DNA of 64,000 nucleotides, taken from a phage. The stretch lies in sequence record PZ445430.1, one strand, 5' to 3'. Made by a program: the position numbers and the translations under genes. Under the pieces are notes generated by a model. That model was not told where the DNA came from and did not search any database. It saw only the letters and a list, made by a program, of their open reading frames with translations. How positions within the stretch are numbered: the stretch's first letter is position 1; every line of letters starts with the position of its first letter. Below, piece after piece: positions 5,625 to 29,064 of this stretch.

Positions 5625-5660
5625 GAGCCTGGGTATGAAAATATCCGGGCTCTTTTTATC
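5625..5660 (+). terminator. rho-independent terminator
   Basis: Hairpin gagcctgg..ccgggctc followed by TTTTTAT. Confidence 0.6.
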
Positions 5661-5740: not shown

Positions 5741-8071
5741 ATGAGCCATCGTATCGAAAAAGTAATTAAACGTGACGGTACTGTTCAGGACTTTGCTCCT
5801 GAAAAACTCAATGATTGGGCTGCATGGGCATGTAAAGATACTGACGTAAGTTGGTCTGCCGTAGTTATGGCTGCCCTGAAAAATCTACCCAAAGGTGTTG
5901 TAGACTCCGATACACTCCAAGATGTGTTAATTAAAGCCGCTGAAGGTCTTATCAAAGACAACCCAGCATATGATACTGTAGCAAAGGAATTACGTCTTGC
6001 GCAGATGCGTAAACGCCTATATGATTCCTTTGAACCTCCTTCTCTGCGTTTCTTCCACGATCATATGGTTCGTATTGGCGCCTGGGAAGACATGAGTGCA
6101 TGGATTAGCGATGATCATTTTGATGCTCTGAATCAAGTTATTGATCATGATCGCGATCGTTTATTCACCAGTGGTGGACTGAAACAGTTCTTCGACAAGT
6201 ATTCCCGTCGTAATATTGCAACTGGTGAAATTTATGAAACCCCGCAGTTTGCCTACATGGGTATGGCAATGGCGATGTTATCTCAACCTAACTGGACAAT
6301 CCTAGATGCAATCGACCTCTACAATGCAATGTCGCTCCACAAAATCAACGTTCCTACGCCGCCACTGGTTGGCCTGCGCTCTAGTGACCGTGGATTTGCT
6401 AGTTGCTGTCTCGTGGATTCCACTGACACGCTGGATTCAATCGACACAGCCGAGCACATCGTCTTCAAAATGGTCGCAGCCAGAGCGGGAATCGGGTATC
6501 ATCTTGAAAGCCGATCAATTGCTGATCCGGTGCGAAATGGGGCATTCCCGCATTCCGGAAAACTGCCATATTATCGACACATTGACCGATCAGTAAAAGC
6601 TAACACTCAGCAAACCCGTGGTGGTTCTGCTACTGTGTCTTACCCATACTTCGATCCTGAAATCATTCAATTGATGCAAGTTAAGCAGCAACGTGCTACA
6701 GACGAGAATAAAATCGATAAGATGGATTACTCTCTGAGCTTTAACAACCTCCTGCTAAAACGTTACCTGAAAAACGAAGATATTACGCTAATGTCCTACT
6801 TCTACGCACCAGAAGTTCATGAAGCGTTTTATGGCGAAGATGAGGCTAAGTTTGAAGAAATCTACGTGGCAGCGGAGAAACGTGTGGCATCTCTTACAAA
6901 GATCGACCACGAAGGAAAAACAATTCCAGCAGCTCCTAGAATCTCTGCAAAAGAAATCCTAGATACTTGGTTACGTATCCGTATGGAAACAGGGCGTATG
7001 TATGCTCATCACATTGGTGAATCTAACCGTCATGGTAACTTCCTTGACCCGATTCGTATGACCAACCTTTGTGTTGAAATTACTCAGCCAACCCGTCCAT
7101 TCCATCACATTACGGAGCTGTATAAGACCCAAGATCAGTTAGACGATATGCGTCCAGAAGATATTGGTGAAGTATCTCTGTGTAACTTAGGTGGTGTTGT
7201 ACTAGGTCGTATGGAATCTCTGGCTGAATGGGAGAAAACTTGCTACATTCTTCTGAAATTCGTTGATACAATCATCGAGATTCAGGATTACCCATTCCCA
7301 ACTATGGAGTACACGGCTAAGAAACGTCGTAACGTTGGTATTGGTCTGATGAACGCAGCAGGTGCAATGGCAGCAGAAGGTTTGGCTTACGAAGGTGTTG
7401 AAGCCCGTAACTGGATTCACCGTGAAGCTGAAAAGCTGTCCTACTTCCTACATAAAGCCTCTGTACGTCTGGCTAAAGAACAAGGTGCATGTGACTGGTT
7501 TAATCGTACTAAACCATCCAAAGGAACTCTGGTAATCGACACGTACAAGAAAACTGTTGATGAACTGGTAACTGTAGGTCTAGAAATGGATTGGGAATCT
7601 CTGCGTGCAGATATTCTGAAATATGGTATGCGCAACTCTGTTCTGACTGCTCAGATGCCGGGTGAAAGTTCCTCTGTACTGCTAGGTGTTACTAACTCTA
7701 TCGAGCCGCCTCGTAAGATTGTATCTATCAAGGGTAGTGCAGTTAATAAAGTAATTGCAATTGCTCCAGGTGCAACCGATTGGGATACATTAATGAGTTA
7801 TAAACTAGCTTATGATGTAGATCGTATCGAGTGGATAAAATGGGTAGCAACCATGCAGAAATTCTTCAGTCAGTCTATCAGTACGAATATGTACTATGAC
7901 TACACCAAGTTTGAGAATGAAATCATTCCTGGTCCAGTAGTAGTTCGTGATTTCATGACTGCTGTTAAGTACGGCTGGAAAACTTGGTACTACGCTAACT
8001 TCAACACTGAAAATGGTGGTGGAGCTGGTGAAGAAGCAGCAGGTTGTGCATCAGGTGGTTGTAACCTGTAA
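5741..8071 (+). CDS. nrdA: ribonucleotide reductase class Ia alpha subunit
   Basis: ATP-cone N-terminus (VIKRDGTVQDF); AAGGAAAG RBS before ATG 5741. Confidence 0.9.
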   Translation: MSHRIEKVIKRDGTVQDFAPEKLNDWAAWACKDTDVSWSAVVMAALKNLPKGVVDSDTLQDVLIKAAEGLIKDNPAYDTVAKELRLAQMRKRLYDSFEPPSLRFFHDHMVRIGAWEDMSAWISDDHFDALNQVIDHDRDRLFTSGGLKQFFDKYSRRNIATGEIYETPQFAYMGMAMAMLSQPNWTILDAIDLYNAMSLHKINVPTPPLVGLRSSDRGFASCCLVDSTDTLDSIDTAEHIVFKMVAARAGIGYHLESRSIADPVRNGAFPHSGKLPYYRHIDRSVKANTQQTRGGSATVSYPYFDPEIIQLMQVKQQRATDENKIDKMDYSLSFNNLLLKRYLKNEDITLMSYFYAPEVHEAFYGEDEAKFEEIYVAAEKRVASLTKIDHEGKTIPAAPRISAKEILDTWLRIRMETGRMYAHHIGESNRHGNFLDPIRMTNLCVEITQPTRPFHHITELYKTQDQLDDMRPEDIGEVSLCNLGGVVLGRMESLAEWEKTCYILLKFVDTIIEIQDYPFPTMEYTAKKRRNVGIGLMNAAGAMAAEGLAYEGVEARNWIHREAEKLSYFLHKASVRLAKEQGACDWFNRTKPSKGTLVIDTYKKTVDELVTVGLEMDWESLRADILKYGMRNSVLTAQMPGESSSVLLGVTNSIEPPRKIVSIKGSAVNKVIAIAPGATDWDTLMSYKLAYDVDRIEWIKWVATMQKFFSQSISTNMYYDYTKFENEIIPGPVVVRDFMTAVKYGWKTWYYANFNTENGGGAGEEAAGCASGGCNL

Positions 8072-8080
8072 TAAAAACAA

Positions 8081-8106
8081 GGAGATCTTCGGGTCTCCTT
8101 TTTCTT
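8081..8106 (+). terminator. rho-independent terminator
   Basis: Hairpin ggagatc-ttcg-ggtctcc plus T-run. Confidence 0.6.
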
Positions 8107-11071: not shown

Positions 11072-11076
11072 TTCAA

Positions 11077-11102
11077 ATAGCCCTTCGGGGCTATTATATT
11101 TA
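11077..11102 (+). terminator. rho-independent terminator
   Basis: Hairpin atagccc-ttcg-gggctat followed by T-rich run. Confidence 0.55.
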
Positions 11103-11750: not shown

Positions 11751-12020
11751 ATGTCTATTCTTTTATCTGCTTTAGAAGCAAAACAAAATACTATTGCTAG
11801 CATTAAAAAGGAAGTAATTGACCTAGAATCACTTATTGCCATAGAGATTGACAAAGCTATCAAAGATAAAGAATTTAACTGTCACATCCAGGGATTAACT
11901 GAATACTCAGAAAACGCTAGAAATAGCGTCATGCAAAAACTTAGCAAACTAGGTTATGTTGTAGAAGCTAAGTATGAACAGCGTGAAGGTTTTTGGCTTG
12001 AAATTGATTGGAGCAAATAA
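11751..12020 (+). CDS. hypothetical protein
   Basis: ORF coupled to upstream gene. Confidence 0.5.
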   Translation: MSILLSALEAKQNTIASIKKEVIDLESLIAIEIDKAIKDKEFNCHIQGLTEYSENARNSVMQKLSKLGYVVEAKYEQREGFWLEIDWSK

Positions 12021-12496
12021 TGTCGGTTTTCCACATATATACAGATGGTGCATGTAAAGGCAATCCTGGTTTAGGTGCGTGGGGATTCGTTGTCTATAAT
12101 GATAATGATGATCGTATTGGCTCTAAATCTGGCTTCAGCCCTAAAACTACTAATAACGAAATGGAACTTACTGCAATTGTAGAAGTTCTTCGTTGGTCTA
12201 CTAAGAAAGATAATCGTCCAGTAATTATCTACACTGATTCTGCTTACTGCAAAAATGGTATGGAAAGCTGGATGTGGTCTTGGCAGAAGAAAGGCTGGAA
12301 GAAGGGAGATGGTGAAACTCCTCTTAATCTAGAACTCTGGCAAGAAGCATTTAAACTAACTCAACAGTATATTAACTTCCATGATACCAATCCAACCTTT
12401 GTTAAGGTTAAAGGTCACTCAGGTATTCGTGGTAATGAAGAAGTTGATGCTCTATGCAATACTGTAATTACTGAGCAAGAACTTGCTGAGATGTAA
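12020..12496 (+). CDS. rnhA: ribonuclease H
   Basis: RNase HI-like motifs (IYTDGACKGNPG, TDSAY, HSGIRGNEEVD); GGAG RBS. Confidence 0.8.
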   Translation: MSVFHIYTDGACKGNPGLGAWGFVVYNDNDDRIGSKSGFSPKTTNNEMELTAIVEVLRWSTKKDNRPVIIYTDSAYCKNGMESWMWSWQKKGWKKGDGETPLNLELWQEAFKLTQQYINFHDTNPTFVKVKGHSGIRGNEEVDALCNTVITEQELAEM

Positions 12497-12516
12497 TAAA
12501 TAATTTAAAAATTCAC

Positions 12517-12545
12517 TTGCTTAAAGCCCTCGAATTTAGTATAAT
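12517..12545 (+). promoter_or_regulatory. early promoter (TTGCTT-17-TATAAT)
   Basis: -35 at 12517-12522, -10 at 12540-12545. Confidence 0.6.
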
Positions 12546-12572
12546 ATTCGTATTGAAAGTGAGGAGGGCTTT

Positions 12573-12851
12573 ATGCGAATTTACAACTCAAATTCATTAG
12601 GATTTAAACCTTTGAGAAAACGCGCACAATCTCCGCGTCAGATCAGAAAGGCAAATATTGGTGAGCCAGAAACTAGGCTTCCACCACCTCCGGAGCAGCG
12701 TCTAGTTTATCTAGATGAAGAATTAGCCGAAAGGGAACGCAAAGCTCAAGAAGAAATTGAGCGTAAGAAACTGTGTACTGCTCCTGCATATAACAAGGGT
12801 GGTTATCAGTACGTTTCCAGTGAGGAACAAGCTAAGATGATCGGCAGATAA
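12573..12851 (+). CDS. hypothetical protein
   Basis: ORF with GAGGAGGG RBS. Confidence 0.5.
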   Translation: MRIYNSNSLGFKPLRKRAQSPRQIRKANIGEPETRLPPPPEQRLVYLDEELAERERKAQEEIERKKLCTAPAYNKGGYQYVSSEEQAKMIGR

Positions 12852-12867
12852 TTTTTAAAAAATTCAT

Positions 12868-12896
12868 TTGCTAAACGCTTCAAAATTTCGTATAAT
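12868..12896 (+). promoter_or_regulatory. early promoter (TTGCTA-17-TATAAT)
   Basis: -35 at 12868-12873, -10 at 12891-12896. Confidence 0.6.
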
Positions 12897-12934
12897 ATAT
12901 CTCATAAATTGATCAACAAAAAGGAAAACAAATA

Positions 12935-13450
12935 ATGGCTAAGCAGAAAAACGCAAAAACTCAGGCAGCTCCGGCAGTTAAAACTTTCGCTCAGACCGAA
13001 GCCAATCGTAAGGCTCGTCTGGAACGTCATCTGCGTAAGCATCCTACTGATGCTCAGGCTCAGACTGCCCTGAAGTCTGCGGCTCCGGTTCGCCAGAAGC
13101 CGAAGGCCAAGAACTCTACTCGCGCAACTGCTAAGCAGGTTGTGTTCATCAAGGGTGAAGGTCATAAGTCTGTACCGGTAACTCTGAGCTTTAACGGCGG
13201 TGCTGAGATGTTCGCCCGCAACGGTATGGCTCTGAAAGACTACGAAAAAGCAGTCAATCAGAAGCGTAAGCCAATGGCTGACGTAATGCGTGAATCCCGT
13301 GGACAGTTTGGCTCCGTTAAACCGAATATTTTCGGTGTAGAGTATAGCCGTGACAACGTTCGCGCTCTGTGCTACGGTATCGGTATTAAGTTTACTGGTG
13401 CTTCTGATCGTAAATCCGCTAAACCTACTCGTAAGCGTAAAGCGAAGTAA
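12935..13450 (+). CDS. basic Ala/Lys-rich protein, possible DNA-binding
   Basis: 171 aa; Lys/Arg/Ala-rich N-terminus; CTG/CGT-rich codon usage unlike neighbours. Confidence 0.55.
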   Translation: MAKQKNAKTQAAPAVKTFAQTEANRKARLERHLRKHPTDAQAQTALKSAAPVRQKPKAKNSTRATAKQVVFIKGEGHKSVPVTLSFNGGAEMFARNGMALKDYEKAVNQKRKPMADVMRESRGQFGSVKPNIFGVEYSRDNVRALCYGIGIKFTGASDRKSAKPTRKRKAK

Positions 13451-13458
13451 TGATTGAT

Positions 13459-13472
13459 GGGGCGAAAGCCCC
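13459..13472 (+). terminator. stable GNRA-type hairpin GGGGCGAAAGCCCC
   Basis: Perfect 5-bp stem; no clear T-run. Confidence 0.35.
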
Positions 13473-13511
13473 ATATACTAACTCTTTCTCTGACTAATTA
13501 AGGATATTTTT

Positions 13512-13727
13512 ATGTTCTCTAAGAAACCACGTTCCGTTACTGAAATCGTTGCTTCCTTTACCACTATTACTGATGAACTTCAAGCTCGTATTGAAGCTGA
13601 CCAGAAAACTGCTGCTGATATTCAGAAACAGCAGGAAGAACTCGCTCTGAAACTGGCTGAAACCAATAAGAGTGAAAAATCTGCTCAAACTATTAAGGAA
13701 AATATCCTTAAACTGCTGGGCAAGTAA
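13512..13727 (+). CDS. hypothetical protein
   Basis: ORF with RBS. Confidence 0.5.
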   Translation: MFSKKPRSVTEIVASFTTITDELQARIEADQKTAADIQKQQEELALKLAETNKSEKSAQTIKENILKLLGK

Positions 13728-13736
13728 TTTAAATCA

Positions 13737-13758
13737 GGGGGCGAAAGCCCCTCTTATT
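13737..13758 (+). terminator. hairpin GGGGCGAAAGCCCC plus T-rich tail
   Basis: Second copy of the same hairpin. Confidence 0.45.
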
Positions 13759-13768
13759 TGGAGAAACT

Positions 13769-13981
13769 ATGCGTAACTTCGTTGCAAAGAATGATTTTAA
13801 CCGTGCTAGCACTCACAAGTCTGCTAGAGACTACACTCGTCTTTCTAAACATGAGCTTCTAGAAGAAATCATGGAAGAAAACTGGGATGTTAGTGAAAAT
13901 GGAACAGACCTGTTTGAAGAAGAGGAAGTTCCTCTGAAAGACCCCAAACAGTGGGAGTCTATTAAAGAGACAGCTCTTTAA
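13769..13981 (+). CDS. hypothetical acidic protein
   Basis: ORF with GGAG RBS. Confidence 0.5.
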   Translation: MRNFVAKNDFNRASTHKSARDYTRLSKHELLEEIMEENWDVSENGTDLFEEEEVPLKDPKQWESIKETAL

Positions 13982-14011
13982 TAGTTTTCTACAACAATAA
14001 AGGACATAATT

Positions 14012-14713
14012 ATGAAATTCAAGCCCTTTGGTATGCTGGACATTGAATCTCTAGGTACTCCAGGAAATTGCGGTACTACTCATATTGCAATGCCTTCTTT
14101 CGCTTTTGTAGCGATGCACGGAATTGATAAAGATCCTGATCTGGTATTCGTTACTCTAGACGTTCAAGATCAGCTTAATGCGGGTGCTAAGGTAACTGCC
14201 TCTACTATTGCATTCTGGATGGATCAAGCTAAAAACAGTCCATCTGCGCTCCATATTATGGAGGCTCTAAATGGTCGTAATCCTAAGCTGATTGCCTTCC
14301 GTGATGGTAAGCATCACTGCACTAATGACGTAGGCTCTAATTATGCTGCCTTCTCTATGGCTCAGAACATTATGGAATTGTCTCTAGGAGATAATGCTCT
14401 GTATTACGGCAATGGCCCAGAGTTTGATATGACAATCTACTCTGCAAATACGTTCCATGCCGGAACCCATGAAGAAATAGTTCCGTGGAAATTCTGGAAC
14501 TTAGGTAACGTTCGATCTTTCCGTAATCAGTGGATGCAAGCTGGTTATAGCTATAAAGATCTAGAAGCCGAAGGTGCTAGCTGGGCAAAAGCTAAAATGG
14601 AAAAGATGGACACCATTCGTTATGGAATCTATCCTGTGAAGCATGATCCAGCATTCGATGCTTTAGTTGAAAGTTATTGTGTAGCCGTCATGATCGAAAA
14701 AATCAAAATTTGA
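14012..14713 (+). CDS. DEDDh-type 3'-5' exonuclease-like protein
   Basis: Candidate Exo motifs MLDIESLGT, GNGPEFD, HDPAFDA. Confidence 0.55.
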   Translation: MKFKPFGMLDIESLGTPGNCGTTHIAMPSFAFVAMHGIDKDPDLVFVTLDVQDQLNAGAKVTASTIAFWMDQAKNSPSALHIMEALNGRNPKLIAFRDGKHHCTNDVGSNYAAFSMAQNIMELSLGDNALYYGNGPEFDMTIYSANTFHAGTHEEIVPWKFWNLGNVRSFRNQWMQAGYSYKDLEAEGASWAKAKMEKMDTIRYGIYPVKHDPAFDALVESYCVAVMIEKIKI

Positions 14714-14714
14714 T

Positions 14715-14743
14715 TTGCTTTCAGCTCCAAAATTCTGTATAAT
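14715..14743 (+). promoter_or_regulatory. early promoter (TTGCTT-17-TATAAT)
   Basis: -35 at 14715-14720, -10 at 14738-14743. Confidence 0.6.
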
Positions 14744-14783
14744 ATATTCATAAATTTGAGAGAACAACAAAAGGAAAATAATT

Positions 14784-14966
14784 ATGCCAGTATCTAAAAA
14801 CGTCCGTAAAAATGGTAAAGTAGCAAAACGTAACCTGGGTCTGCGTCGTATGGCTGAGTGTCAGTCCGGCATCCAGAAAATCTTTAATGTACTGAATCGC
14901 GCCAACCCGAATATTGATAACAGTTCTGATACTGTTCTGCGCACTCTGCTGGCAATCGGTCTGTAA
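14784..14966 (+). CDS. hypothetical basic protein
   Basis: ORF with AAGGAAA RBS. Confidence 0.45.
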   Translation: MPVSKNVRKNGKVAKRNLGLRRMAECQSGIQKIFNVLNRANPNIDNSSDTVLRTLLAIGL

Positions 14967-15020
14967 TAGGCCGTTTTTAAAACAAATTCAAATCTCAAAC
15001 TTCATATAAGGAAGCAAATA

Positions 15021-15659
15021 ATGACTACTCGTATCTCTAAAACTCGTGCTCTGGCAACTATCAAGTCTCTGGAAGCTAAAATCCGTAAAGCTACTGAACA
15101 ACAGCTTTTGATCGCTGTTGGTGAAGGTAAGGACAAGAACCAAGTTGTCGTTGGCGCTGCAATCGAAGTAGATGCTCTGTCTACTCGTATTAAGACTGAT
15201 TTCCAGTCTCTGCTGGATATGATGTCCCAGCGTGATCAGCTGAAAGCTGCGCTGATCAAGAGCAATGCTGAAACTGTTGTAGAGATCGGTTCTCGCTCTA
15301 TGACTGTTGCGGAAGCAATCGAAGCTAAGCGTTCTATGGAACTCAAAGCTCAGTTGCTGGCTAACATGCGTAAGCAGTTCCATGCTGCTACTGTTAAGTT
15401 TAACACTCAGAAGGCTCAGTTTGACGCCAAGTATGAGCGTCTGCAGGATACCATGGCTACCCGCGACAAGAAGACTTCCGAGGATGAAGTTAAGATGCAG
15501 CTTAACCTGCTGGAACTCAAGAACACTCCGTTCCTGATCGATCCGCTGGAGCTAGAAAAGCTGATCAAGCAACACGACGAAGAATACCAGGACTTTGCAA
15601 CTAACGTTGACTTTGTTCTGTCTGAGTCCAACGCCTCTACTTTCATCGAAGTAGAGTAA
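15021..15659 (+). CDS. hypothetical protein
   Basis: 212 aa; AAGGAAG RBS; codon usage like 12935..13450. Confidence 0.55.
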   Translation: MTTRISKTRALATIKSLEAKIRKATEQQLLIAVGEGKDKNQVVVGAAIEVDALSTRIKTDFQSLLDMMSQRDQLKAALIKSNAETVVEIGSRSMTVAEAIEAKRSMELKAQLLANMRKQFHAATVKFNTQKAQFDAKYERLQDTMATRDKKTSEDEVKMQLNLLELKNTPFLIDPLELEKLIKQHDEEYQDFATNVDFVLSESNASTFIEVE

Positions 15660-16039
15660 TAATTTAAAAGACTAGTAAATCGGTAGACGAAAGCCCAAGC
15701 ATCTTACCTCGCAGCAGCGGTTGAAATACGAGGTTAAATAAGACCGCTGACCATACTATAAAGTATAATCTATTGGAGATTATGTTTATTACACCAGCCT
15801 CTTAAGCTGAACTGTAAAAACGGTCGTTGGTAGTACCAACACAACTTCAAAGATCAACGCTCAAGTATGAAAGCTGAAAAGTTAAAAGAACTCAAACTTC
15901 TAACCTTCTAAAGCTAAAAGATGCAAAGTATTCGTTGATGATTCAAACCCTAGATCAAAGGTACATGGCTCATAAGATATGGCCTGTGGCGCCTCTAGGC
16001 TGTTTATCGGTTCACTAGTCTCTCAATTTAAAAATGTAT

Positions 16040-16068
16040 TTGCTAATTAGTTTAGTTTTCTATATAAT
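16040..16068 (+). promoter_or_regulatory. early promoter (TTGCTA-17-TATAAT)
   Basis: -35 at 16040-16045, -10 at 16063-16068. Confidence 0.6.
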
Positions 16069-16098
16069 ATATTTTTAAATTGATGAGACGAGGCTATT

Positions 16099-16416
16099 AT
16101 GATTTTTCATATTCTGATTGATGATGTTCGTGACCTGCATGGGATGGATATTATCATTCGAACCCCCGAAGCCGCTATTGAGTTTCTGAATACAACCGAT
16201 ACCACCGGACATTTCGTTTATATGGATAATGATCTGGCTGTAGATGGTATGGAAGGTTATCAAATTCTTCGTTTACTCCTAGAATTTGGACAGAGACCCA
16301 AGAAAGTGGTACTAGTAACCTCGAACCCTGTAGCTAAGCAGAACATGCGTAATGATTTGCTTGACGAAGGGTATCAAGAAAGCCCTAATCGTATTGAGTA
16401 CGATTGGCCGGAGTAA
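16099..16416 (+). CDS. hypothetical protein
   Basis: ORF with GAGG RBS. Confidence 0.5.
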   Translation: MIFHILIDDVRDLHGMDIIIRTPEAAIEFLNTTDTTGHFVYMDNDLAVDGMEGYQILRLLLEFGQRPKKVVLVTSNPVAKQNMRNDLLDEGYQESPNRIEYDWPE

Positions 16417-16421
16417 ATAAA

Positions 16422-16871
16422 ATGAAGGCAGCTTTGCTTCTAATAGCTGCCCTAACCTATAGCTTCAATAGTCATGCTACCTACGACTCAAAGCAGATTG
16501 ATTGCATTGCAAAAAATATCTACTTCGAAGCACGAGGTGAGGGCACAAAGGGAATGATTGCAGTTGCACAGGTTACTAAAAACCGTGTAAACTCCGGTAA
16601 ATTCCCTGATTCTTACTGTAAAGTAGTATATCAGTCTAACCAATTCAGCTGGACAGCTAAAAAACCTAGGGTTGATAAAACAGATGAGACTTGGCAAGTT
16701 GCTAAGAACTTAGCTAGAGTGATATACTACGTTGATTTACCACAAGATCCAACACAGGGGGCGTTATACTTCCATAGTGGTAAAGATAAACCGTACTGGA
16801 CAAAGAAGTTTAAGAAAACAACGAAGATTCAAGGCCATACGTTCTACAAGCCTGTGGTTAAGAAAACTTAA
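16422..16871 (+). CDS. secreted cell-wall hydrolase (SleB/Hydrolase_2-like)
   Basis: Signal peptide MKAALLLIAALTYSFNSHA; motif NIYFEARGEG..AVAQVTKNR. Confidence 0.55.
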   Translation: MKAALLLIAALTYSFNSHATYDSKQIDCIAKNIYFEARGEGTKGMIAVAQVTKNRVNSGKFPDSYCKVVYQSNQFSWTAKKPRVDKTDETWQVAKNLARVIYYVDLPQDPTQGALYFHSGKDKPYWTKKFKKTTKIQGHTFYKPVVKKT

Positions 16872-16878
16872 AAATTCG

Positions 16879-16907
16879 ATTGCTTAAAGACTTAAATTTC
16901 TGTATAA
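16879..16907 (+). promoter_or_regulatory. early promoter (TTGCTT-17-TATAAT)
   Basis: -35 at 16879-16884, -10 at 16902-16907. Confidence 0.6.
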
Positions 16908-16939
16908 TACTTTCATAAATTAATGAGAGGAAGCGAAAT

Positions 16940-17110
16940 ATGAAATCAGTTGTAATTATTGGTGTTAATACCCGTGGTATCCGTACTACGAAAACAGTTA
17001 AAACTACTAACGTTGCTGAAATTACTACAAACCCTAAGAAGTTTGATTTCGCCAAAGTCTCGGCAGTTATGACAGAACAATCTTTTAACCAAGTACTGGG
17101 AATTAAATAA
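16940..17110 (+). CDS. small hypothetical protein (56 aa)
   Basis: Short ORF with GAGAGGAAG RBS, coupled to next gene. Confidence 0.35.
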   Translation: MKSVVIIGVNTRGIRTTKTVKTTNVAEITTNPKKFDFAKVSAVMTEQSFNQVLGIK

Positions 17111-17553
17111 TGGAAGAAAATATTCTAAATGTTTTGCGTAGGGCTTTGCAGGAATCTAAGATTGATGGCTCTGATAAAGAGGTAGCTAAAAGCTACCAGA
17201 CCATAATCGAAGATCTTCAGCGTGTTGATAAAGACTTCATTACTTCTGAACAGTTTGTGTCTTATCTCAAAGCTCAGCTGAAAAGCATTAATCAGACGAA
17301 AGCTAAACTTCATGGTCAAGACCTTGATAATTATAGCTTGCAGTCTGCTCAGTATGAATATATACTGAACAAATGGCTACAACAGTATCTGCCGCCTCAG
17401 CTTTCTGATTCTGAGATTCGCAAATACTTTGCAGAATTAGTTACGTTGAACCCTGGGATTACGAAGAGTATGCTGATGAAAGCGATTAAGGAAGAATTCC
17501 CTGGTCGTTATGACGGTGGCATCGCTGCTCAGGTTGCTGGCGAATTTAACTAA
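17110..17553 (+). CDS. hypothetical protein
   Basis: ORF. Confidence 0.5.
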   Translation: MEENILNVLRRALQESKIDGSDKEVAKSYQTIIEDLQRVDKDFITSEQFVSYLKAQLKSINQTKAKLHGQDLDNYSLQSAQYEYILNKWLQQYLPPQLSDSEIRKYFAELVTLNPGITKSMLMKAIKEEFPGRYDGGIAAQVAGEFN

Positions 17554-17561
17554 AAATTGAT

Positions 17562-17590
17562 TTGCTAAACGCTTCAAAATTCTGTATAAT
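17562..17590 (+). promoter_or_regulatory. early promoter (TTGCTA-17-TATAAT) reading into an ORF-free region
   Basis: -35 at 17562-17567, -10 at 17585-17590. Confidence 0.6.
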
Positions 17591-17845
17591 AGATTCATAA
17601 ATTAGAGAACAGCGAGCCGATTACGCTGAGTGAGTTTAGTGATTCCTACTAGGATAGCTACTCCACTGAATAGAGTCGGTGAGTTGGAGACTAGTAAGTA
17701 CTCTGAGAGAGGCTACGAGCTAACGCTTATTGCTATTGATAGGGAACTGAAAATCTGCGGAAAACTCGGGAGCTGTCCCGAAATCTCGTAAACTCTTCTC
17801 TAGTTTATGTTAGTGGGGTGTCGAACTGACTTATGTGATAACACT

Positions 17846-17917
17846 GCCGTCCTAGTATAAACGGTAATATCAAACCGTAACTGGTGGAAGATGCAGGTTC
17901 GAATCCTGCGGTCGGAA
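17846..17917 (+). ncRNA. tRNA-like element
   Basis: Canonical T-arm GCAGGTTCGAATCCTGC; acceptor and anticodon stems do not pair; no CCA. Confidence 0.3.
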
Positions 17918-18449
17918 AGAATCAGATAACTCGGGCTTATACCGGATAAGCATTCGCTGCTGTAGTACATACTATGACGGTTCAGGAGGTACGCCTCCTG
18001 ATCAGTATTAGGTTAGAATCGAAACAGCTAAACCACGAGGAAACCTGACGGCCTCAACCAAACTCGGAACTCGGGATCACTGCCTAGTGTGTACCCCGTT
18101 TAACCTGAGACTAGGCATCCAGCTTCGCATCGAAAATCGGAGGTGCGATTCTAACAGACCGCGTGAATATGAGAGTGGGAAACGCTGACATGAGAGATGT
18201 CACTAATGGTGCCCAATAGTACAGGTAATTCGCGATAATTCCTGTTGAGCGGCAGCAGTAGGCTGGGAGTCATGACCTAAGCCTAACCGAGTTCTTCACA
18301 TACGGAGAACATAACCACAAAGTCACCCTGACTTAAACTGGAAGATATTGTCTGACGGAAGGGCTGCAGAGCTTAATCTGAGGGGGCTGACCCTACCTAC
18401 CGTCGGGTATCTTTAAGAGCTTTTATAAGAGTTCTTAAAAATACCTAAA

Positions 18450-18524
18450 CGGGGTGTAGTCTAAGGGATAGGCAGGAGTCTTCTAAATTCCTTTATGCAG
18501 GTTCGAATCCTGTCACCTCGGCCA
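18450..18524 (+). tRNA. tRNA-Arg(TCT)
   Basis: Manual cloverleaf; anticodon loop CTTCTAA; CCA encoded. Confidence 0.7.
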
Positions 18525-18550
18525 ATTTTATTAACTGCTAGGAAAATAAA

Positions 18551-18751
18551 GTGAAAACACGATATATAGTAAAAGTAGTAGGTGAACATTCACAAGTAAA
18601 TACCACCGATGTTACAGCGCTAGCATTTGAAGTAGTCTCCGGTATAGTCATATTTCATAACGGAGATATCAAAGCTCCTGAATTTGCTGTGGATGCTAGC
18701 CTGTTTATTTCTGCAACTAAAGTAACTGTAGTAGCTAACTCTTCTAAATAA
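18551..18751 (+). CDS. hypothetical protein
   Basis: ORF with GTG start after AGGAAA RBS. Confidence 0.4.
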   Translation: MKTRYIVKVVGEHSQVNTTDVTALAFEVVSGIVIFHNGDIKAPEFAVDASLFISATKVTVVANSSK

Positions 18752-18762
18752 TAAGGAAATAT

Positions 18763-19707
18763 ATGTTTACTAAAAACACTAAAGAACTGACTTCCGATCA
18801 AAAAGTAATTCGTACTATTAAACGTTGGGGCGTTGGTGCTGTAGTTGGTCTTGGCGCTCTTATTCTGGCTCTCAATTCCTATACAGTTGTTCAGGACGGT
18901 ACGGTTAAAACTCAGACTTTCCTGGGTAAAGTTAGTCCTAATCCTGTATTGCCGGGGTTCCATATTGTCAACCCATTCGCCTCTTTTGATACTTTTAGTA
19001 CGAAAGATATTTCTATGAAACTGGATAAACTTCAGGTTCCTAGCCAGGATAAGTTTAAGTCCACTGTTGACATTACCGTTATGTTGCAGTTTGATGGTGC
19101 TAAAGCTCCTATGAACCGTGTTAACGCAGGTACTCAGGATCAAGCTCTGAACAAGTACGTTGAAGAGAAGATGCTATCTACTATTCGTGAGTTTGGTAAG
19201 TCTGTACCAAAAGCACAAGATCTGTTCGACGCTAAGATTCAGGCTCAACTGCAAACTGCTATTCAGCAAGAAGTAGAAGAGTACGCGCGTCCTTATGGTT
19301 ACACGGTTAAGCAAGTATTCCTTCAGGATATTACTCTGCCACCTGTAATCATGGAACAGGTACAAAACACAAAAGTTCGTGAAGAACAAGTTAACGCCGC
19401 TAAAGCTGAATTGGCTCGTGTTGAACAAGAAGCACAGCAGAAAGTTAAGCAAGCTGAAGCTGATCGTTCTGCTCGTGAAAACATGGCAGTAGCTAACGAA
19501 CGTGACGCAGATGCTAAACTGTACGCAGCTAAGAAAGAAGCTGAAGCTAACGCCGCGCTGCAACGTACCATTACTCCTGAAATGATTCGTTGGAAGCAGC
19601 TGGAAGTTGAAATGCTTCGTGCTGAAAAATACCAAGGTGGTGTACCGCAGACTATTGTTGGTACTGGCTACGATGGTCAAATGATCATGGATATGCGTAA
19701 CAAGTAA
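18763..19707 (+). CDS. SPFH/band-7 (HflK/C, prohibitin-like) membrane protein
   Basis: N-terminal TM helix, SPFH-like core, long Ala/Glu/Lys coiled coil. Confidence 0.7.
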   Translation: MFTKNTKELTSDQKVIRTIKRWGVGAVVGLGALILALNSYTVVQDGTVKTQTFLGKVSPNPVLPGFHIVNPFASFDTFSTKDISMKLDKLQVPSQDKFKSTVDITVMLQFDGAKAPMNRVNAGTQDQALNKYVEEKMLSTIREFGKSVPKAQDLFDAKIQAQLQTAIQQEVEEYARPYGYTVKQVFLQDITLPPVIMEQVQNTKVREEQVNAAKAELARVEQEAQQKVKQAEADRSARENMAVANERDADAKLYAAKKEAEANAALQRTITPEMIRWKQLEVEMLRAEKYQGGVPQTIVGTGYDGQMIMDMRNK

Positions 19708-25429: not shown

Positions 25430-25505
25430 ACATCCATAGCTCAATGGTTAGAGCTACCGCCTCTTAAGCGGAGGGTTCTAGGTTCAAGTCCTAGTGGGTG
25501 TACCA
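25430..25505 (+). tRNA. tRNA-Lys(CTT)
   Basis: D-stem gctc/gagc; anticodon loop CTCTTAA; T-loop TTCAAGT; CCA encoded. Confidence 0.6.
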
Positions 25506-28989: not shown

Positions 28990-29064
28990 GCGTCCTTATT
29001 TCAATGGAAAGAATGTAAAGCTACGAACTTTACGATCGGGGTTCGATTCCCTGAGGATGCACCA
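28990..29064 (+). tRNA. tRNA-Arg(ACG)
   Basis: Anticodon arm taaag-CTACGAA-cttta; T-loop TTCGATT; CCA encoded. Confidence 0.75.

What the first reader, a model, noticed from the sequence alone, without database searches (positions are those of the whole stretch)
12935..15659. Early genes with host-like codon usage and repeated GGGGCGAAAGCCCC hairpins
Genes 12935-13450 and 15021-15659 use CTG/CGT/GCT-rich codons and higher GC than their neighbours, suggesting very high expression or recent acquisition. The 171-aa product has a Lys/Ala-rich N-terminal tail like a nucleoid-binding protein. An identical 14-nt GNRA hairpin follows two genes in this block.
Basis: seen in the sequence. Interest (0 to 1): 0.45.

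Follow-up and report, generated by a model that had tools for sequence, protein, structure and literature searches.

The report
Highly expressed T5-type early genes with terminator hairpins
Two early genes of unknown function in a T5-like coliphage are built for very high expression (strong promoters, host-optimal codons, stable RNA hairpins after the genes), which is ordinary phage gene architecture, although what the two abundant proteins do is still unknown.

Summary
The window is Escherichia phage SuperGirl (Bas29), a T5-like phage.

- **Codon bias:** the 171-aa and 212-aa genes rank 5th and 4th of 171 phage genes in codon adaptation to E. coli. Only major capsid protein, SSB and the D5-like DNA-binding protein rank higher.
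- **Hairpins:** GGGGCGAAAGCCCC occurs exactly twice.
- **Not recent acquisition:** both genes are syntenic across Demerecviridae and absent from 5,426 E. coli genomes. The 171-aa gene (T5.089 ortholog) sits directly behind a promoter matching T5's annotated P-H207.
- **Expression:** published RNA-seq of the related phage Bas33 puts the two orthologs 6th and 4th of 82 genes. Transcript drops about 74-fold across the hairpin.
- **Hairpin conservation:** the stem is invariant but the loop is not, including flipped loops. A distant relative has a different stem at the same site.
- **Optional slot:** the two copies bracket a slot holding 0, 1 or 2 genes.
- **Proteins:** the 171-aa protein is DUF7022, very basic and poorly foldable, with only a weak uS15-like motif. 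The 212-aa protein, annotated "tail fiber", has a DIP1984-like helical fold.

Neither function is known. The architecture is ordinary; interest is modest.

The parts
12868..12896 (+). T5-type sigma-70 early promoter (TTGCTA, 17-nt spacer, TATAAT, A-rich upstream), ortholog of T5 promoter P-H207. It drives the 171-aa gene.
   Evidence: Consensus scan scores 10 of 12. My own regex scan lists it with its flanks. Phage S114's record annotates it as 'P-H 207-like promoter', and the T5 record has 'promoter P-H 207' directly upstream of T5.089.
12935..13450 (+). 171-aa gene (bas29_0069, T5.089 ortholog). It is DUF7022: very basic (pI 10.9, net +27), with a conserved N-terminal helix-loop-helix module and a conserved C-terminal FGSVKPNIFG...GIKFTG block. 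Function is unknown.
   Evidence: Pfam DUF7022 at E = 1.5e-79. CAI 0.705, rank 5 of 171. Alignment. AF2 pLDDT 64. Ortholog TPM 7677/6658 in Bas33.
13457..13474 (+). Hairpin 1: ATGGGGC-GAAA-GCCCCAT, a 7-bp stem at -13.8 kcal/mol with no U-tract after it. It is the left boundary of the optional-gene slot.
   Evidence: Conservation and loop variation.
13512..13727 (+). 71-aa accessory gene (bas29_0070, phrog_2380), CAI 0.658, rank 8. It is the cargo of the slot between the two hairpins and is absent from T5 and Bas33.
   Evidence: It is present in 373 of 445 related phage records.
13737..13762 (+). Hairpin 2: GGGGGC-GAAA-GCCCCT followed by the U-rich tail CTTATTTGGA. It looks like an intrinsic terminator and corresponds, with its right flank, to the single hairpin of T5 and Bas33.
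   Evidence: Terminator scan, fold at -15.7 kcal/mol, alignment. In Bas33 transcript falls about 74-fold across the orthologous hairpin.
13769..13981 (+). 70-aa gene (DUF7230, T5.088 ortholog), CAI 0.49. It is the first gene after the terminator-like hairpin.
   Evidence: Ortholog bas33_0072 has TPM of only 102/92.
13959..13984 (+). AT-rich 11-bp hairpin followed by TTTTCT, overlapping the stop codon of the 70-aa gene.
   Evidence: -12.8 kcal/mol, z = -4.25.
14012..14713 (+). 233-aa gene (T5.087 ortholog), an Rv2179c-like 3'-5' exoribonuclease fold family. GenBank annotates it 'putative metallopeptidase'. CAI 0.45.
   Evidence: Pfam PF16473 at E = 1.3e-7. PHROG 255 'exonuclease' at E = 2.6e-52.
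14715..14743 (+). Second T5-type early promoter (TTGCTT, 17-nt spacer, TATAAT) with the downstream box ATTCATAAATTTGAGAG. It drives the 60-aa and 212-aa genes.
   Evidence: It is annotated as a promoter in S114 and T5.
14784..14966 (+). 60-aa very basic gene (pI 11.4, T5.086 ortholog), CAI 0.66, rank 7.
   Evidence: Ortholog TPM 3368/3035.
14957..14973 (+). Weak hairpin CGGTCTG-TAA-TAGGCCG followed by TTTTT, straddling the stop codon of the 60-aa gene.
   Evidence: -7.6 kcal/mol, z = -1.8, so not distinguishable from chance.
15021..15659 (+). 212-aa gene (bas29_0074, T5.085 ortholog). It is an acidic, mainly helical protein whose fold resembles DIP1984 (PDB 3KDQ). Many records mislabel it 'tail fiber protein'. 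Function is unknown.
15660..16039 (+). 380-nt conserved, structured non-coding stretch downstream of the 212-aa gene. It may be a 3'UTR, a non-coding RNA or a processing stem. Whether it belongs to the unit is uncertain.

Best explanation
The block consists of two early transcription units of a T5-like phage that are built to make a few proteins in very large amounts.

**Unit A.** A P-H207-type sigma-70 promoter (12868-12896) drives the 171-aa basic DUF7022 protein. Hairpin 1 follows, then the optional 71-aa gene, then hairpin 2 with a U-rich tail.

**Unit B.** A second T5-type promoter (14715-14743) drives a 60-aa basic protein and the 212-aa DIP1984-like helical protein.

**Codon bias.** The host-like codon usage and raised GC come from translational selection on highly expressed genes, not from foreign origin.

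**Hairpins.** The GGGGC/GCCCC stem-loops are RNA 3'-end elements.
- The copy with the U-rich tail (hairpin 2, equivalent to the only hairpin in T5 and Bas33) ends or strongly attenuates transcription and protects the upstream mRNA.
- Hairpin 1, which lacks a U-tract, probably lets RNA polymerase through to the 71-aa gene. At most it acts as a stabilising or processing structure.

**Optional slot.** Because the two copies are direct repeats, they also mark the ends of a 279-bp optional segment (hairpin plus 71-aa gene). The segment is gained or lost by recombination or slippage between the copies.

**Shown vs inferred.**
- Shown: the codon bias, promoter matches, hairpin conservation, the indel boundaries, and high RNA abundance with an RNA drop in the Bas33 ortholog.
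- Inferred: termination as the cause of the drop (rather than processing), the different roles of hairpins 1 and 2, and every protein function.
- My working guess is that the 171-aa protein is a stoichiometric nucleic-acid-binding protein and the 212-aa protein a non-enzymatic, abundant structural or adaptor protein of early infection.
For: **Codon bias**
- CAI ranks 4 and 5 of 171, alongside MCP, SSB and the D5-like protein.
- Resampling gives z = 7.4 and 10.2.

**Promoters**
- T5-type promoters lie directly upstream.
- They are annotated as P-H207 or P-H207-like in T5 and S114.

**Expression in Bas33, 20 min after infection** (PMC13250531 Dataset S1)
- Gene identities were checked: 80% and 94% amino-acid identity at the same coordinates.
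- bas33_0071 has TPM 7677/6658 and bas33_0075 has 8541/6881, against 5136/3009 for the major capsid gene.
- These are ranks 6 and 4 of 82 genes.
- The six highest-CAI genes are all among the ten highest in TPM. Spearman rho is 0.38, p = 5e-4.

**RNA drop across the hairpin.** The Bas33 hairpin is GAGGGGC-GAAA-GCCCCTC followed by ATATTTT. Mean TPM falls from 7168 in bas33_0071 to 97 in bas33_0072.

**Hairpin conservation**
- The stem GGGGC/GCCCC is invariant in 27 Markadamsvirinae loci. It is also identical in Pectobacterium phage DU_PP_V, where the protein is only 46-47% identical. Loops vary.
- A distant relative (L044) has a different stem, TTGGGAGCC-TTG-GCTCCCAA, at the same position between DUF7022 and DUF7230.

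**General pattern.** Stable tetraloop hairpins sit 5-20 nt after the stops of MCP, SSB, NrdA, A2 and other genes in this genome.

**Optional slot**
- Hairpin count equals 1 plus the presence of the 71-aa gene in all 29 loci that have a hairpin.
- Single-hairpin phages combine the left flank of hairpin 1 with the right flank of hairpin 2.
- One locus carries two genes in the slot.

**Origin**
- No E. coli chromosomal match.
- Synteny is conserved in distant relatives.
Against: - No expression or 3'-end data exist for SuperGirl itself or for any two-hairpin phage. The Bas33 data are a single time point (20 min) with gene-level TPM only.
- In Bas33 the gene after next (bas33_0073) is back at TPM of about 3300. 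No promoter is annotated or obvious there. So the dip at bas33_0072 could reflect processing and differential decay rather than termination, or there is an unrecognised promoter.
- Hairpin 1 has no U-tract, and hairpin 2 has only 5 U in 8.
- Within the closely related phages the stem never varies, so there is no covariation among them.
- CAI correlates only moderately with TPM (rho 0.38). Some high-TPM genes have low CAI, for example bas33_0041 at 0.33.
- Protein abundance was not seen directly. The proteome lists of the two relevant papers were not available.
Confidence: 0.75

Rival explanations
1. The two genes were recently acquired from the host or another GC-richer donor, and their codon usage and GC reflect that origin.
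For: - GC is 0.50 and 0.46 against 0.40 for the genome. The 171-aa gene matches E. coli's overall GC.
Against: - There is no megablast match in 5,426 complete E. coli genomes.
- DUF7022 occurs in 530 phage records; all the listed ones are T5-like. Its position is syntenic even in distant relatives.
- The 212-aa family's close relatives are phage genes.
- The bias is codon-specific. It favours the same optimal codons as E. coli ribosomal-protein genes, including AT-ending GCT, ACT, TCT, GGT and CGT.
- Orthologs in Tequintavirus keep high CAI, 0.58-0.67.
Confidence: 0.03
2. The hairpins are mainly DNA-level recombination or mobility elements that shuffle accessory genes, like the promoter-early stem-loop cassettes of T4-type phages. 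Any effect on RNA would be secondary.
For: - The two identical copies lie exactly at the ends of a present/absent 279-bp segment.
- The slot holds 0, 1 or 2 genes in different phages.
- Loops occur as reverse-complement pairs (GAAA/TTTC and TTCT/AGAA). This is what stem-mediated inversion at the DNA level would produce.
Against: - Single-hairpin phages keep the hairpin at the same place, so it is maintained without a partner.
- A distant relative has a different hairpin at the same site.
- RNA abundance drops about 74-fold across it.
- Only two copies exist in the genome. No promoter is part of the repeat.
- Nucleotide identity of the cargo (89-93%) is not clearly different from much of the flanking DNA.
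Confidence: 0.15
3. The 171-aa protein is a histone-like or nucleoid-associated DNA-binding protein. It would coat phage or host DNA early in infection.
For: - pI is 10.9 and net charge +27, with basic Lys/Ala-rich and Lys/Arg-rich termini.
- Expression is very high.
- The AF2 model has low confidence, as expected for a protein that folds on a nucleic acid.
Against: - There is no significant match to HU/IHF, H-NS, Fis, histone H1-like or any other DNA-binding family.
- The only recurrent weak similarity is to an RNA-binding ribosomal protein.
- T5-like phages already have an abundant DNA-binding protein (D5) and an SSB.
Confidence: 0.2
4. The 212-aa protein is a tail fiber or virion protein, as annotated in T5 and many other records.
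For: - PHROG 1491 carries the label 'tail fiber protein'.
- The same label appears in GenBank and UniProt records.
Against: - The gene lies in the early region behind a sigma-70 early promoter, far from the tail module.
- The fold is a DIP1984-like helical bundle with no fiber features.
- Relatives in other phages sit among DNA and RNA metabolism genes such as UvsY, RNA ligase and a PD-(D/E)XK nuclease.
- The phiR2-01 paper's main text does not name it among the major virion-associated proteins. Neighbouring early genes carry equally implausible labels such as 'tape-measure' and 'major capsid protein'.
Confidence: 0.03

Closest known systems
Strong early promoters of coliphage T5 (P-H207, P-N25, P-D/E20) and their transcription units
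   Same: The promoter at 12868-12896 is the ortholog of the one the T5 GenBank record labels 'promoter P-H 207', in front of T5.089. It has the T5 hallmarks: an A-rich upstream block, TTGCT at -35, a 17-nt spacer and TATAAT. From my own knowledge (Gentz & Bujard 1985; Deuschle et al. 1986), P-H207 is among the strongest E. coli RNA polymerase promoters measured in vivo.
   Different: This phage belongs to the genus Epseptimavirus and the promoter differs from T5's at a few bases. I found nothing published about the gene the promoter drives.
Intrinsic terminators and stable tetraloop hairpins in phage intercistronic regions (for example the T4 CUUCGG and GNRA hairpins, Tuerk et al. 1988, cited from my own knowledge)
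   Same: These are short GC-rich stems with 4-nt loops placed 5-20 nt after stop codons of highly expressed genes. The same genome has UUCG and UACG examples after MCP, SSB and NrdA. RNA drops across the orthologous hairpin in Bas33.
   Different: Hairpin 1 lacks a U-tract. The loop is not held as GNRA among relatives. No 3'-end mapping exists.
Promoter-early stem-loop (PeSL) cassettes of T4-type phages (Arbiol, Comeau & Krisch 2010, cited from my own knowledge)
   Same: Repeated stem-loops flank optional small early genes and coincide with indel boundaries.
   Different: The repeat here is only the 14-nt stem-loop, with no promoter in it. There are only two copies per genome.
DIP1984 family (PDB 3KDQ; Pfam DUF6847 PF20935; NCBIfam NF038048)
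   Different: No member reaches a curated cut-off. The phage protein is about 60 residues longer. The DIP1984 family itself has no established function.
Ribosomal protein uS15 (Pfam PF00312)
   Same: The conserved motif of the DUF7022 N-terminal module, RL-x-RHLK-x-HP-x-D-x-QA, aligns with the uS15 L-x2-HL-x2-H-x-KD-x2-S-x-RGL helix-loop-helix.
- 28 of 111 family members give sub-threshold PF00312 hits, best E = 6.7e-4. The next most frequent family is hit by 5.
- 6 of the 7 best PDB profile hits are uS15 chains, at E = 0.7-2.5.
- A 26-residue, 0.6 A match to B. subtilis S15 appears in Foldseek at E = 6.5.
   Different: Nothing is significant.
- hhalign against an enterobacterial S15 profile gives E = 0.3 over 18 columns.
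- E. coli S15 scores 1.0 bit against the module HMM, which is within noise.
- The rest of the protein is unrelated.

Membership tests
Highly expressed genes under translational selection (host-adapted codon usage) | Codon adaptation index to the host's highly expressed genes well above the genome's own distribution | tested here: met
   CAI is 0.705 and 0.710 against a median of 0.389, ranks 5 and 4 of 171. z = 7.4 and 10.2 against synonymous resampling.
Highly expressed genes under translational selection (host-adapted codon usage) | High measured expression | tested here: met
   This was tested in the ortholog only. Bas33 RNA-seq puts the two genes at ranks 6 and 4 of 82 by TPM, above the major capsid gene. 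Protein-level data were not available.
Sigma-70 T5 early promoter | -35 TTGCT/TTGACA-like and -10 TATAAT hexamers with a 17-nt spacer and an A-rich upstream region, directly upstream of the gene | tested here: met
   Sites at 12868-12896 and 14715-14743. Both are annotated as promoters in the T5 and S114 records. Promoter activity was not measured here.
Intrinsic (Rho-independent) terminator | GC-rich stem-loop just downstream of a stop codon | tested here: met
   The two hairpins fold at -13.8 and -15.7 kcal/mol, 8 and 10 nt after stop codons.
Intrinsic (Rho-independent) terminator | Run of U immediately 3' of the stem | tested here: inconclusive
   Hairpin 2 is followed by CTTATTTG and passes the scan's criterion of 5 T in 8. 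Hairpin 1 is followed by ATATACTAAC and does not.
Intrinsic (Rho-independent) terminator | Transcript 3' ends or a loss of RNA downstream | tested here: inconclusive
   Gene-level TPM drops about 74-fold across the orthologous single hairpin in Bas33. RNA then recovers at the next gene, and no 3'-end mapping exists.
GNRA tetraloop hairpin | G-N-R-A loop conserved as such | tested here: not met
   The loop is GAAA here. Orthologs carry TTCT, AGAA, TTTA, TTTC or GTCAT on the same stem.
Pfam DUF7022 (PF22887) | Match above the gathering score | tested here: met
   266.5 bits against a cut-off of 27, E = 1.5e-79, full length.
Nucleoid-associated or histone-like DNA-binding proteins (HU/IHF, H-NS, H1-like) | Sequence or fold match to a known DNA-binding family | tested here: not met
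   No such match appeared in Pfam, PDB sequence searches or Foldseek (the model has low confidence).
Nucleoid-associated or histone-like DNA-binding proteins (HU/IHF, H-NS, H1-like) | DNA binding | not testable with these tools
   Only the charge is known: pI 10.9, net +27.
Ribosomal protein uS15 (PF00312) | Match above the gathering score or a significant profile-profile score | tested here: not met
   The best single-sequence E is 6.7e-4, below the cut-off. hhalign gives E = 0.3. E. coli S15 scores 1.0 bit.
DIP1984 / DUF6847 family | Sequence match above the curated cut-off | tested here: not met
   The window protein itself has no hit. Relatives reach at best E = 0.0074 (Pfam) and 0.0059 (NCBIfam).
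DIP1984 / DUF6847 family | Same fold as PDB 3KDQ | tested here: met
Phage tail fiber protein (the label on PHROG 1491) | Fiber-like fold, late or structural gene context, presence in virions | tested here: not met
   The fold is a helical bundle. The context is an early region behind an early promoter. Relatives sit among nucleic-acid metabolism genes. Presence in virions was not tested.
PeSL-type mobile regulatory cassette | Repeat unit containing an early promoter plus a stem-loop, in many copies, flanking variable ORFs | tested here: not met
   The repeat is the stem-loop only, with two copies per genome. It does flank a variable slot.

The most novel reading that the evidence does not exclude
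The conserved N-terminal module of DUF7022 may be a uS15-like RNA-binding helix-loop-helix.

- The module's motif is N-R-x2-RL-x-RHLK-x-HP-x-D and it occurs in more than 100 small basic phage proteins.
- If the reading is right, T5-like phages flood the cell early with an abundant RNA- or ribosome-binding protein.
- Possible targets are 16S rRNA, the phage's own stable RNAs or tRNA precursors, or the conserved GGGGC hairpin at the end of its own mRNA.
- The H32, H36 and D39 positions of the window protein line up with residues that, from memory of the S15-rRNA crystal structures, contact the G-U/G-C motif of 16S rRNA helix 22.
Probability: 0.1. Interest if true: 0.7.

Novelty: new member of a known kind. 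Interest (0 to 1): 0.33.

Why it matters
P-H207 is a classic, widely re-used strong promoter, yet the gene it naturally drives (T5.089, DUF7022) has no known function. The same is true of the equally abundant T5.085 (DIP1984-like).

By codon adaptation and RNA abundance these two sit with capsid protein, SSB and D5. They are therefore probably stoichiometric players in early T5 infection, and they are conserved across Demerecviridae. That makes them good targets for functional work.

The analysis also corrects widespread mis-annotation of these genes ('tail fiber', 'tape-measure', 'metallopeptidase'). It gives a clean small example of a terminator hairpin that doubles as the boundary of an accessory-gene slot.

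As genome architecture, none of this is surprising.

Tried and rejected
- **Rfam.** A scan of 12000-19000 at E <= 1 found nothing at the hairpins or in the 380-nt spacer.
- **PDB sequence searches.** Single sequences and profiles gave no significant hits for either protein. Weak Spy hits for the 212-aa protein (E = 0.016) look like generic coiled-coil similarity.
- **AF2 on the 171-aa protein.** The model has pLDDT 64, and Foldseek with it returned nothing with E < 1.
- **uS15 lead.** I tested it three ways (then 82 and 90). It did not reach significance, so I keep it only as a low-probability lead.
- **AFDB50 fold search.** The library was unavailable.
- **Horizontal exchange of the 71-aa cargo.** Its nucleotide identity to Tequintavirus copies (89-93%) is not clearly above much of the surrounding DNA, so I dropped the idea.
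- **Literature.** Searches for T5.089, T5.085, T5p087, T5p083 and DUF7022 found no papers. The phiR2-01 proteome tables are not held. Deuschle et al. 1986 is not held.
- **Bacterial relative of the 212-aa protein.** Its context in Solibacillus was uninformative.
- **T5 nick sites.** I considered the hairpins as T5 nick sites and rejected this. They do not contain the GCGC consensus given in the T5 record.

Full report
**Identity of the window.** The region 12500-16200 is 100% identical to Escherichia phage SuperGirl (Bas29, MZ501105.1; Demerecviridae, Markadamsvirinae, Epseptimavirus). About 445 T5-like phage records match it. The whole window equals SuperGirl 47304-110821 followed by bases 1-482. 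The finding lies in the early region, between the nucleotide-metabolism genes (nrdAB, frd, thy, RNase H) and the tRNA cluster. In T5 itself the orthologs are T5.089 (171 aa) and T5.085 (212 aa, labelled 'tail fiber protein').

**Checking the observation.** Both ORFs exist as described. I built codon-adaptation weights from 30 E. coli K-12 ribosomal-protein, EF-Tu/EF-G and rpoA genes and scored all 171 annotated SuperGirl CDS.
- The 212-aa gene scores 0.710 (rank 4) and the 171-aa gene 0.705 (rank 5).
- Only the major capsid protein (0.777), SSB (0.776) and the D5-like DNA-binding protein (0.773) score higher.
- The genome median is 0.389. The cryptic E. coli gsp genes, used as a low-expression control, average 0.34.
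- Redrawing synonymous codons from the rest of the phage gives z = 7.4 and 10.2.
- The bias is codon-specific. CTG is 75% of Leu against 20% elsewhere in the phage and 80% in E. coli ribosomal-protein genes. Arg uses only CGT and CGC. ATC is 81% of Ile and CAG 87% of Gln. The AT-ending optimal codons GCT, ACT, TCT and GGT are also favoured.
- The neighbouring 60-aa and 71-aa genes rank 7 and 8.
- One departure from host-like usage: Lys AAG is 69% in the two genes against 32% in E. coli ribosomal-protein genes.

The hairpin GGGGCGAAAGCCCC occurs exactly twice in 64 kb, where 0.11 matches are expected. One copy follows the 171-aa gene and the other follows the 71-aa gene. None follows the 212-aa gene.

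**High expression, not recent acquisition.**
- T5-type promoters sit directly in front of both units. The first is the ortholog of the promoter annotated 'P-H 207' in the T5 record and 'P-H 207-like' in S114.
- There is no match to the block in 5,426 complete E. coli genomes.
- DUF7022 is present in 530 phage records, and all the listed ones are T5-like.
- A distant metagenomic relative keeps the order thymidylate synthase, RNase H, small ORF, DUF7022, DUF7230, cell-wall hydrolase.

Direct support comes from a published data set, the RNA-seq of Tequintavirus Bas33 (HildyBeyeler) at 20 min after infection (PMC13250531, Dataset S1).
- Gene coordinates in that table match MZ501074. bas33_0071 is 80% identical to the 171-aa protein and bas33_0075 is 94% identical to the 212-aa protein.
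- Their TPM values in two replicates are 7677/6658 and 8541/6881. The major capsid gene has 5136/3009 and the D5-like gene 22868/16641.
- Among the 82 genes whose coordinates I could match, they rank 6th and 4th.
- The six genes with the highest CAI are all among the ten highest in TPM. Spearman rho is 0.38, p = 5e-4.

**The hairpins.** Both fold as predicted, at -13.8 and -15.7 kcal/mol. They belong to a general pattern in this genome: stable tetraloop hairpins lie 5-20 nt after the stops of MCP, SSB, NrdA, A2, the Clp-like protease, endolysin and others.

Comparison with 31 IMG/VR loci, T5 and Bas33 gives four results.
1. The stem GGGGC/GCCCC is invariant in all Markadamsvirinae. It is also identical in Pectobacterium phage DU_PP_V, whose protein is only 46-47% identical. 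The loop, in contrast, is GAAA, GAGA, GTAA, TTCT, AGAA, TTTA or TTTC, and My1 has GGGGGC-GTCAT-GCCCCC. GAAA/TTTC and TTCT/AGAA are reverse complements, so the loop has flipped at least twice. The GNRA loop is therefore not the selected feature.
2. A more distant relative has an unrelated GC-rich hairpin, TTGGGAGCC-TTG-GCTCCCAA, at the same place between DUF7022 and DUF7230. Sugarlandviruses have none.
3. The number of hairpins equals 1 plus the presence of the 71-aa gene in every locus that has a hairpin. In single-hairpin phages such as T5 and Bas33, the hairpin carries the left flank of hairpin 1 and the right flank of hairpin 2. A 279-bp unit (hairpin plus 71-aa gene) is therefore gained or lost exactly between the repeats. 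The cargo is present in 373 of about 445 records. One locus holds a second, roughly 86-aa ORF in the same slot.
4. Only the right-hand flank carries a U-rich tail: CTTATTTGG here and CATATTTTGG in T5 and Bas33. Hairpin 1 is followed by ATATACTAAC.

In Bas33, mean TPM falls from 7168 in bas33_0071 to 97 in bas33_0072 across the hairpin. I read hairpin 2 as the functional terminator or 3'-end element of the P-H207 transcript. Hairpin 1 would be a copy that RNA polymerase passes, allowing co-expression of the cargo gene. That second step is inference. One observation stays unexplained: bas33_0073 is back at TPM of about 3300 although no promoter is annotated or obvious in between. Processing with differential decay, or an unrecognised promoter, remains open.

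**The 171-aa protein.**
- It is a full-length DUF7022 (E = 1.5e-79) with pI 10.9 and net charge +27.
- The family alignment shows three parts. There is a conserved N-terminal block (TEANRKARLERHLRKHP-x-D-x-QA ... R-x-KP), a variable middle that is missing in shorter relatives, and a conserved C-terminal block (FGSVKPNIFGVEYSRENVRALCYGVGIKFTG) before a basic tail.
- AF2 gives pLDDT 64 overall, with 80-90 only for the helix-loop-helix at about residues 19-47.
- An exhaustive profile search found 135 proteins. Most share only the N-terminal 60 or so residues, and one of them sits at the syntenic position of a distant T5-like phage.
- The only recurring outside similarity is to ribosomal protein uS15. 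28 of 111 members give weak PF00312 hits, best E = 6.7e-4. Six of the seven best PDB profile hits are uS15, at E = 0.7-2.5. One 26-residue Foldseek match is to B. subtilis S15.
- The controls fail. hhalign against enterobacterial S15 gives E = 0.3, and E. coli S15 scores 1 bit, within noise.

I therefore do not file it under uS15. 'RNA-binding, S15-like motif' stays as a lead with about 10% probability.

**The 212-aa protein.**
- It has no Pfam family. PHROG 1491 labels it 'tail fiber'.
- It has 245 relatives, mostly from metagenomes and large virulent phages.
- AF2 gives pLDDT 89: long helical hairpins capped by a small sheet formed by the N-terminus, residues 86-95 and the C-terminus. The invariant residues (R9, R71, K75, N82, D197, SESN 201-204) fall in or next to those segments in the sequence.
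- DUF6847 and DIP1984_fam are the most frequent weak hits among relatives.
- BFVD matches are uncharacterised proteins of Aeromonas, Cronobacter, Acinetobacter and Bacillus phages.
- A distant relative sits among UvsY, RNA ligase and nuclease genes.

The 'tail fiber' label is not credible. The function is unknown.

**Verdict.** The best explanation is ordinary: abundant early gene products expressed from classic strong T5 promoters, with codon optimisation and terminator or stabiliser hairpins. The added twist is that the hairpin repeat delimits an accessory-gene slot. What remains of interest is the unknown function of two very abundant, family-wide conserved early proteins, and a conserved structured spacer downstream of the 212-aa gene.

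Noticed in passing
window 15660-16039: This 380-nt non-coding stretch lies between the 212-aa gene and the next T5-type promoter.
- It is 93-99% identical across 27 Markadamsvirinae loci, better conserved than much of the flanking coding DNA.
- It has no ORF of 28 aa or more.
- Its minimum free energy is -97.4 kcal/mol (z = -3.8).
- The consensus fold has a terminal helix of about 20 bp (roughly 15669-15688 paired with 16003-16022) and two compensatory pairs.
- It has no Rfam hit and is unannotated in T5.

It could be a structured 3'UTR, a non-coding RNA or an RNase III-type stem.
   Followed up: partly
Bas33 locus L047 2389-2654 (orthologous to window 13769-14012): In the Bas33 RNA-seq the gene after the hairpin (bas33_0072) has TPM of about 97. 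The next gene (bas33_0073, exonuclease-like) is back at about 3300, with no annotated or obvious promoter between them. Also, bas33_0075 (about 7700) has 2.4 times the TPM of its upstream operon partner bas33_0074 (about 3200). Either promoters are missing from the annotation or mRNA segments decay at different rates.
   Followed up: partly
IMG/VR loci L011, L026 (TTTC); L011, L017, L019, L029, L030 (TTCT); L021, L022, L027 (AGAA): Loops of the orthologous hairpins occur as reverse-complement pairs on an unchanged stem (GAAA vs TTTC, TTCT vs AGAA). The loop has therefore been inverted at least twice, as expected from stem-mediated flipping.
   Followed up: partly
L017 4797-5058: One Tequintavirus-type locus carries an extra ORF of about 86 aa directly after the 71-aa gene and before hairpin 2. 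The slot between the hairpins can therefore hold 0, 1 or 2 genes.
   Followed up: partly
window 25430-25505 (tRNA-Lys CUU) and the two genes of the finding: The two genes use AAG for 62-76% of Lys. The rest of the phage uses 38%, and E. coli ribosomal-protein genes 32%. The phage encodes a tRNA-Lys(CUU), a species that, to my knowledge, E. coli lacks. SSB and D5 do not share the AAG preference, but the tail tube gene does.
   Followed up: partly
window 17600-18450: The T5 record annotates the orthologous stretch as 'RNAX, stable RNA with unknown functions', transcribed from promoter P16-17 and ending at tRNA-Arg. SuperGirl annotates two small hypothetical ORFs there (bas29_0079 and bas29_0080). 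Rfam finds a borderline tRNA-like element at 17846-17917 (29.3 bits, gathering score 29).
   Followed up: no
window 14012-14713: The 233-aa gene is annotated 'putative metallopeptidase' in SuperGirl and many other records. It matches the Rv2179c-like 3'-5' exoribonuclease domain (E = 1.3e-7) and PHROG 255 'exonuclease' (E = 2.6e-52), and T5 calls it an exonuclease.
   Followed up: no
window 16099-16416: The 105-aa gene after the spacer matches the cREC_REC 'cyclic-phosphate processing receiver domain' (PF20274, E = 1e-15). The Bas33 gene at the corresponding position (bas33_0076) is annotated as containing an intein.
   Followed up: no
window 5625-5652, 8079-8100, 11076-11095 (and SuperGirl 6097-6118, 29003-29024 outside the window): Other stable tetraloop hairpins (GAAA, UUCG, UACG) sit 5-20 nt after stop codons. 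They follow the small ORF downstream of the PhoH-like gene, NrdA, a hypothetical gene, MCP and SSB, and most are followed by T-runs. This appears to be the phage's general terminator or stabiliser style.
   Followed up: partly
GenBank records matching window 12500-16200: These small early genes carry implausible automatic labels in many records: 'tail fiber protein' (212 aa), 'tail length tape-measure protein' (71 aa), and 'major capsid protein' and 'terminase large subunit' (SP_Thor). The 171-aa protein is labelled 'swarming motility protein' in phage BB1 and 'Virion structural protein' in UniProt.
   Followed up: no
PMC13250531 Dataset S1 vs MZ501074: In the paper's re-assembled Bas33 genome, coordinates agree with GenBank up to bas33_0082. 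From bas33_0123 onward they are about 9.7 kb lower, which suggests that the laboratory stock has lost most of the tRNA region.
   Followed up: no
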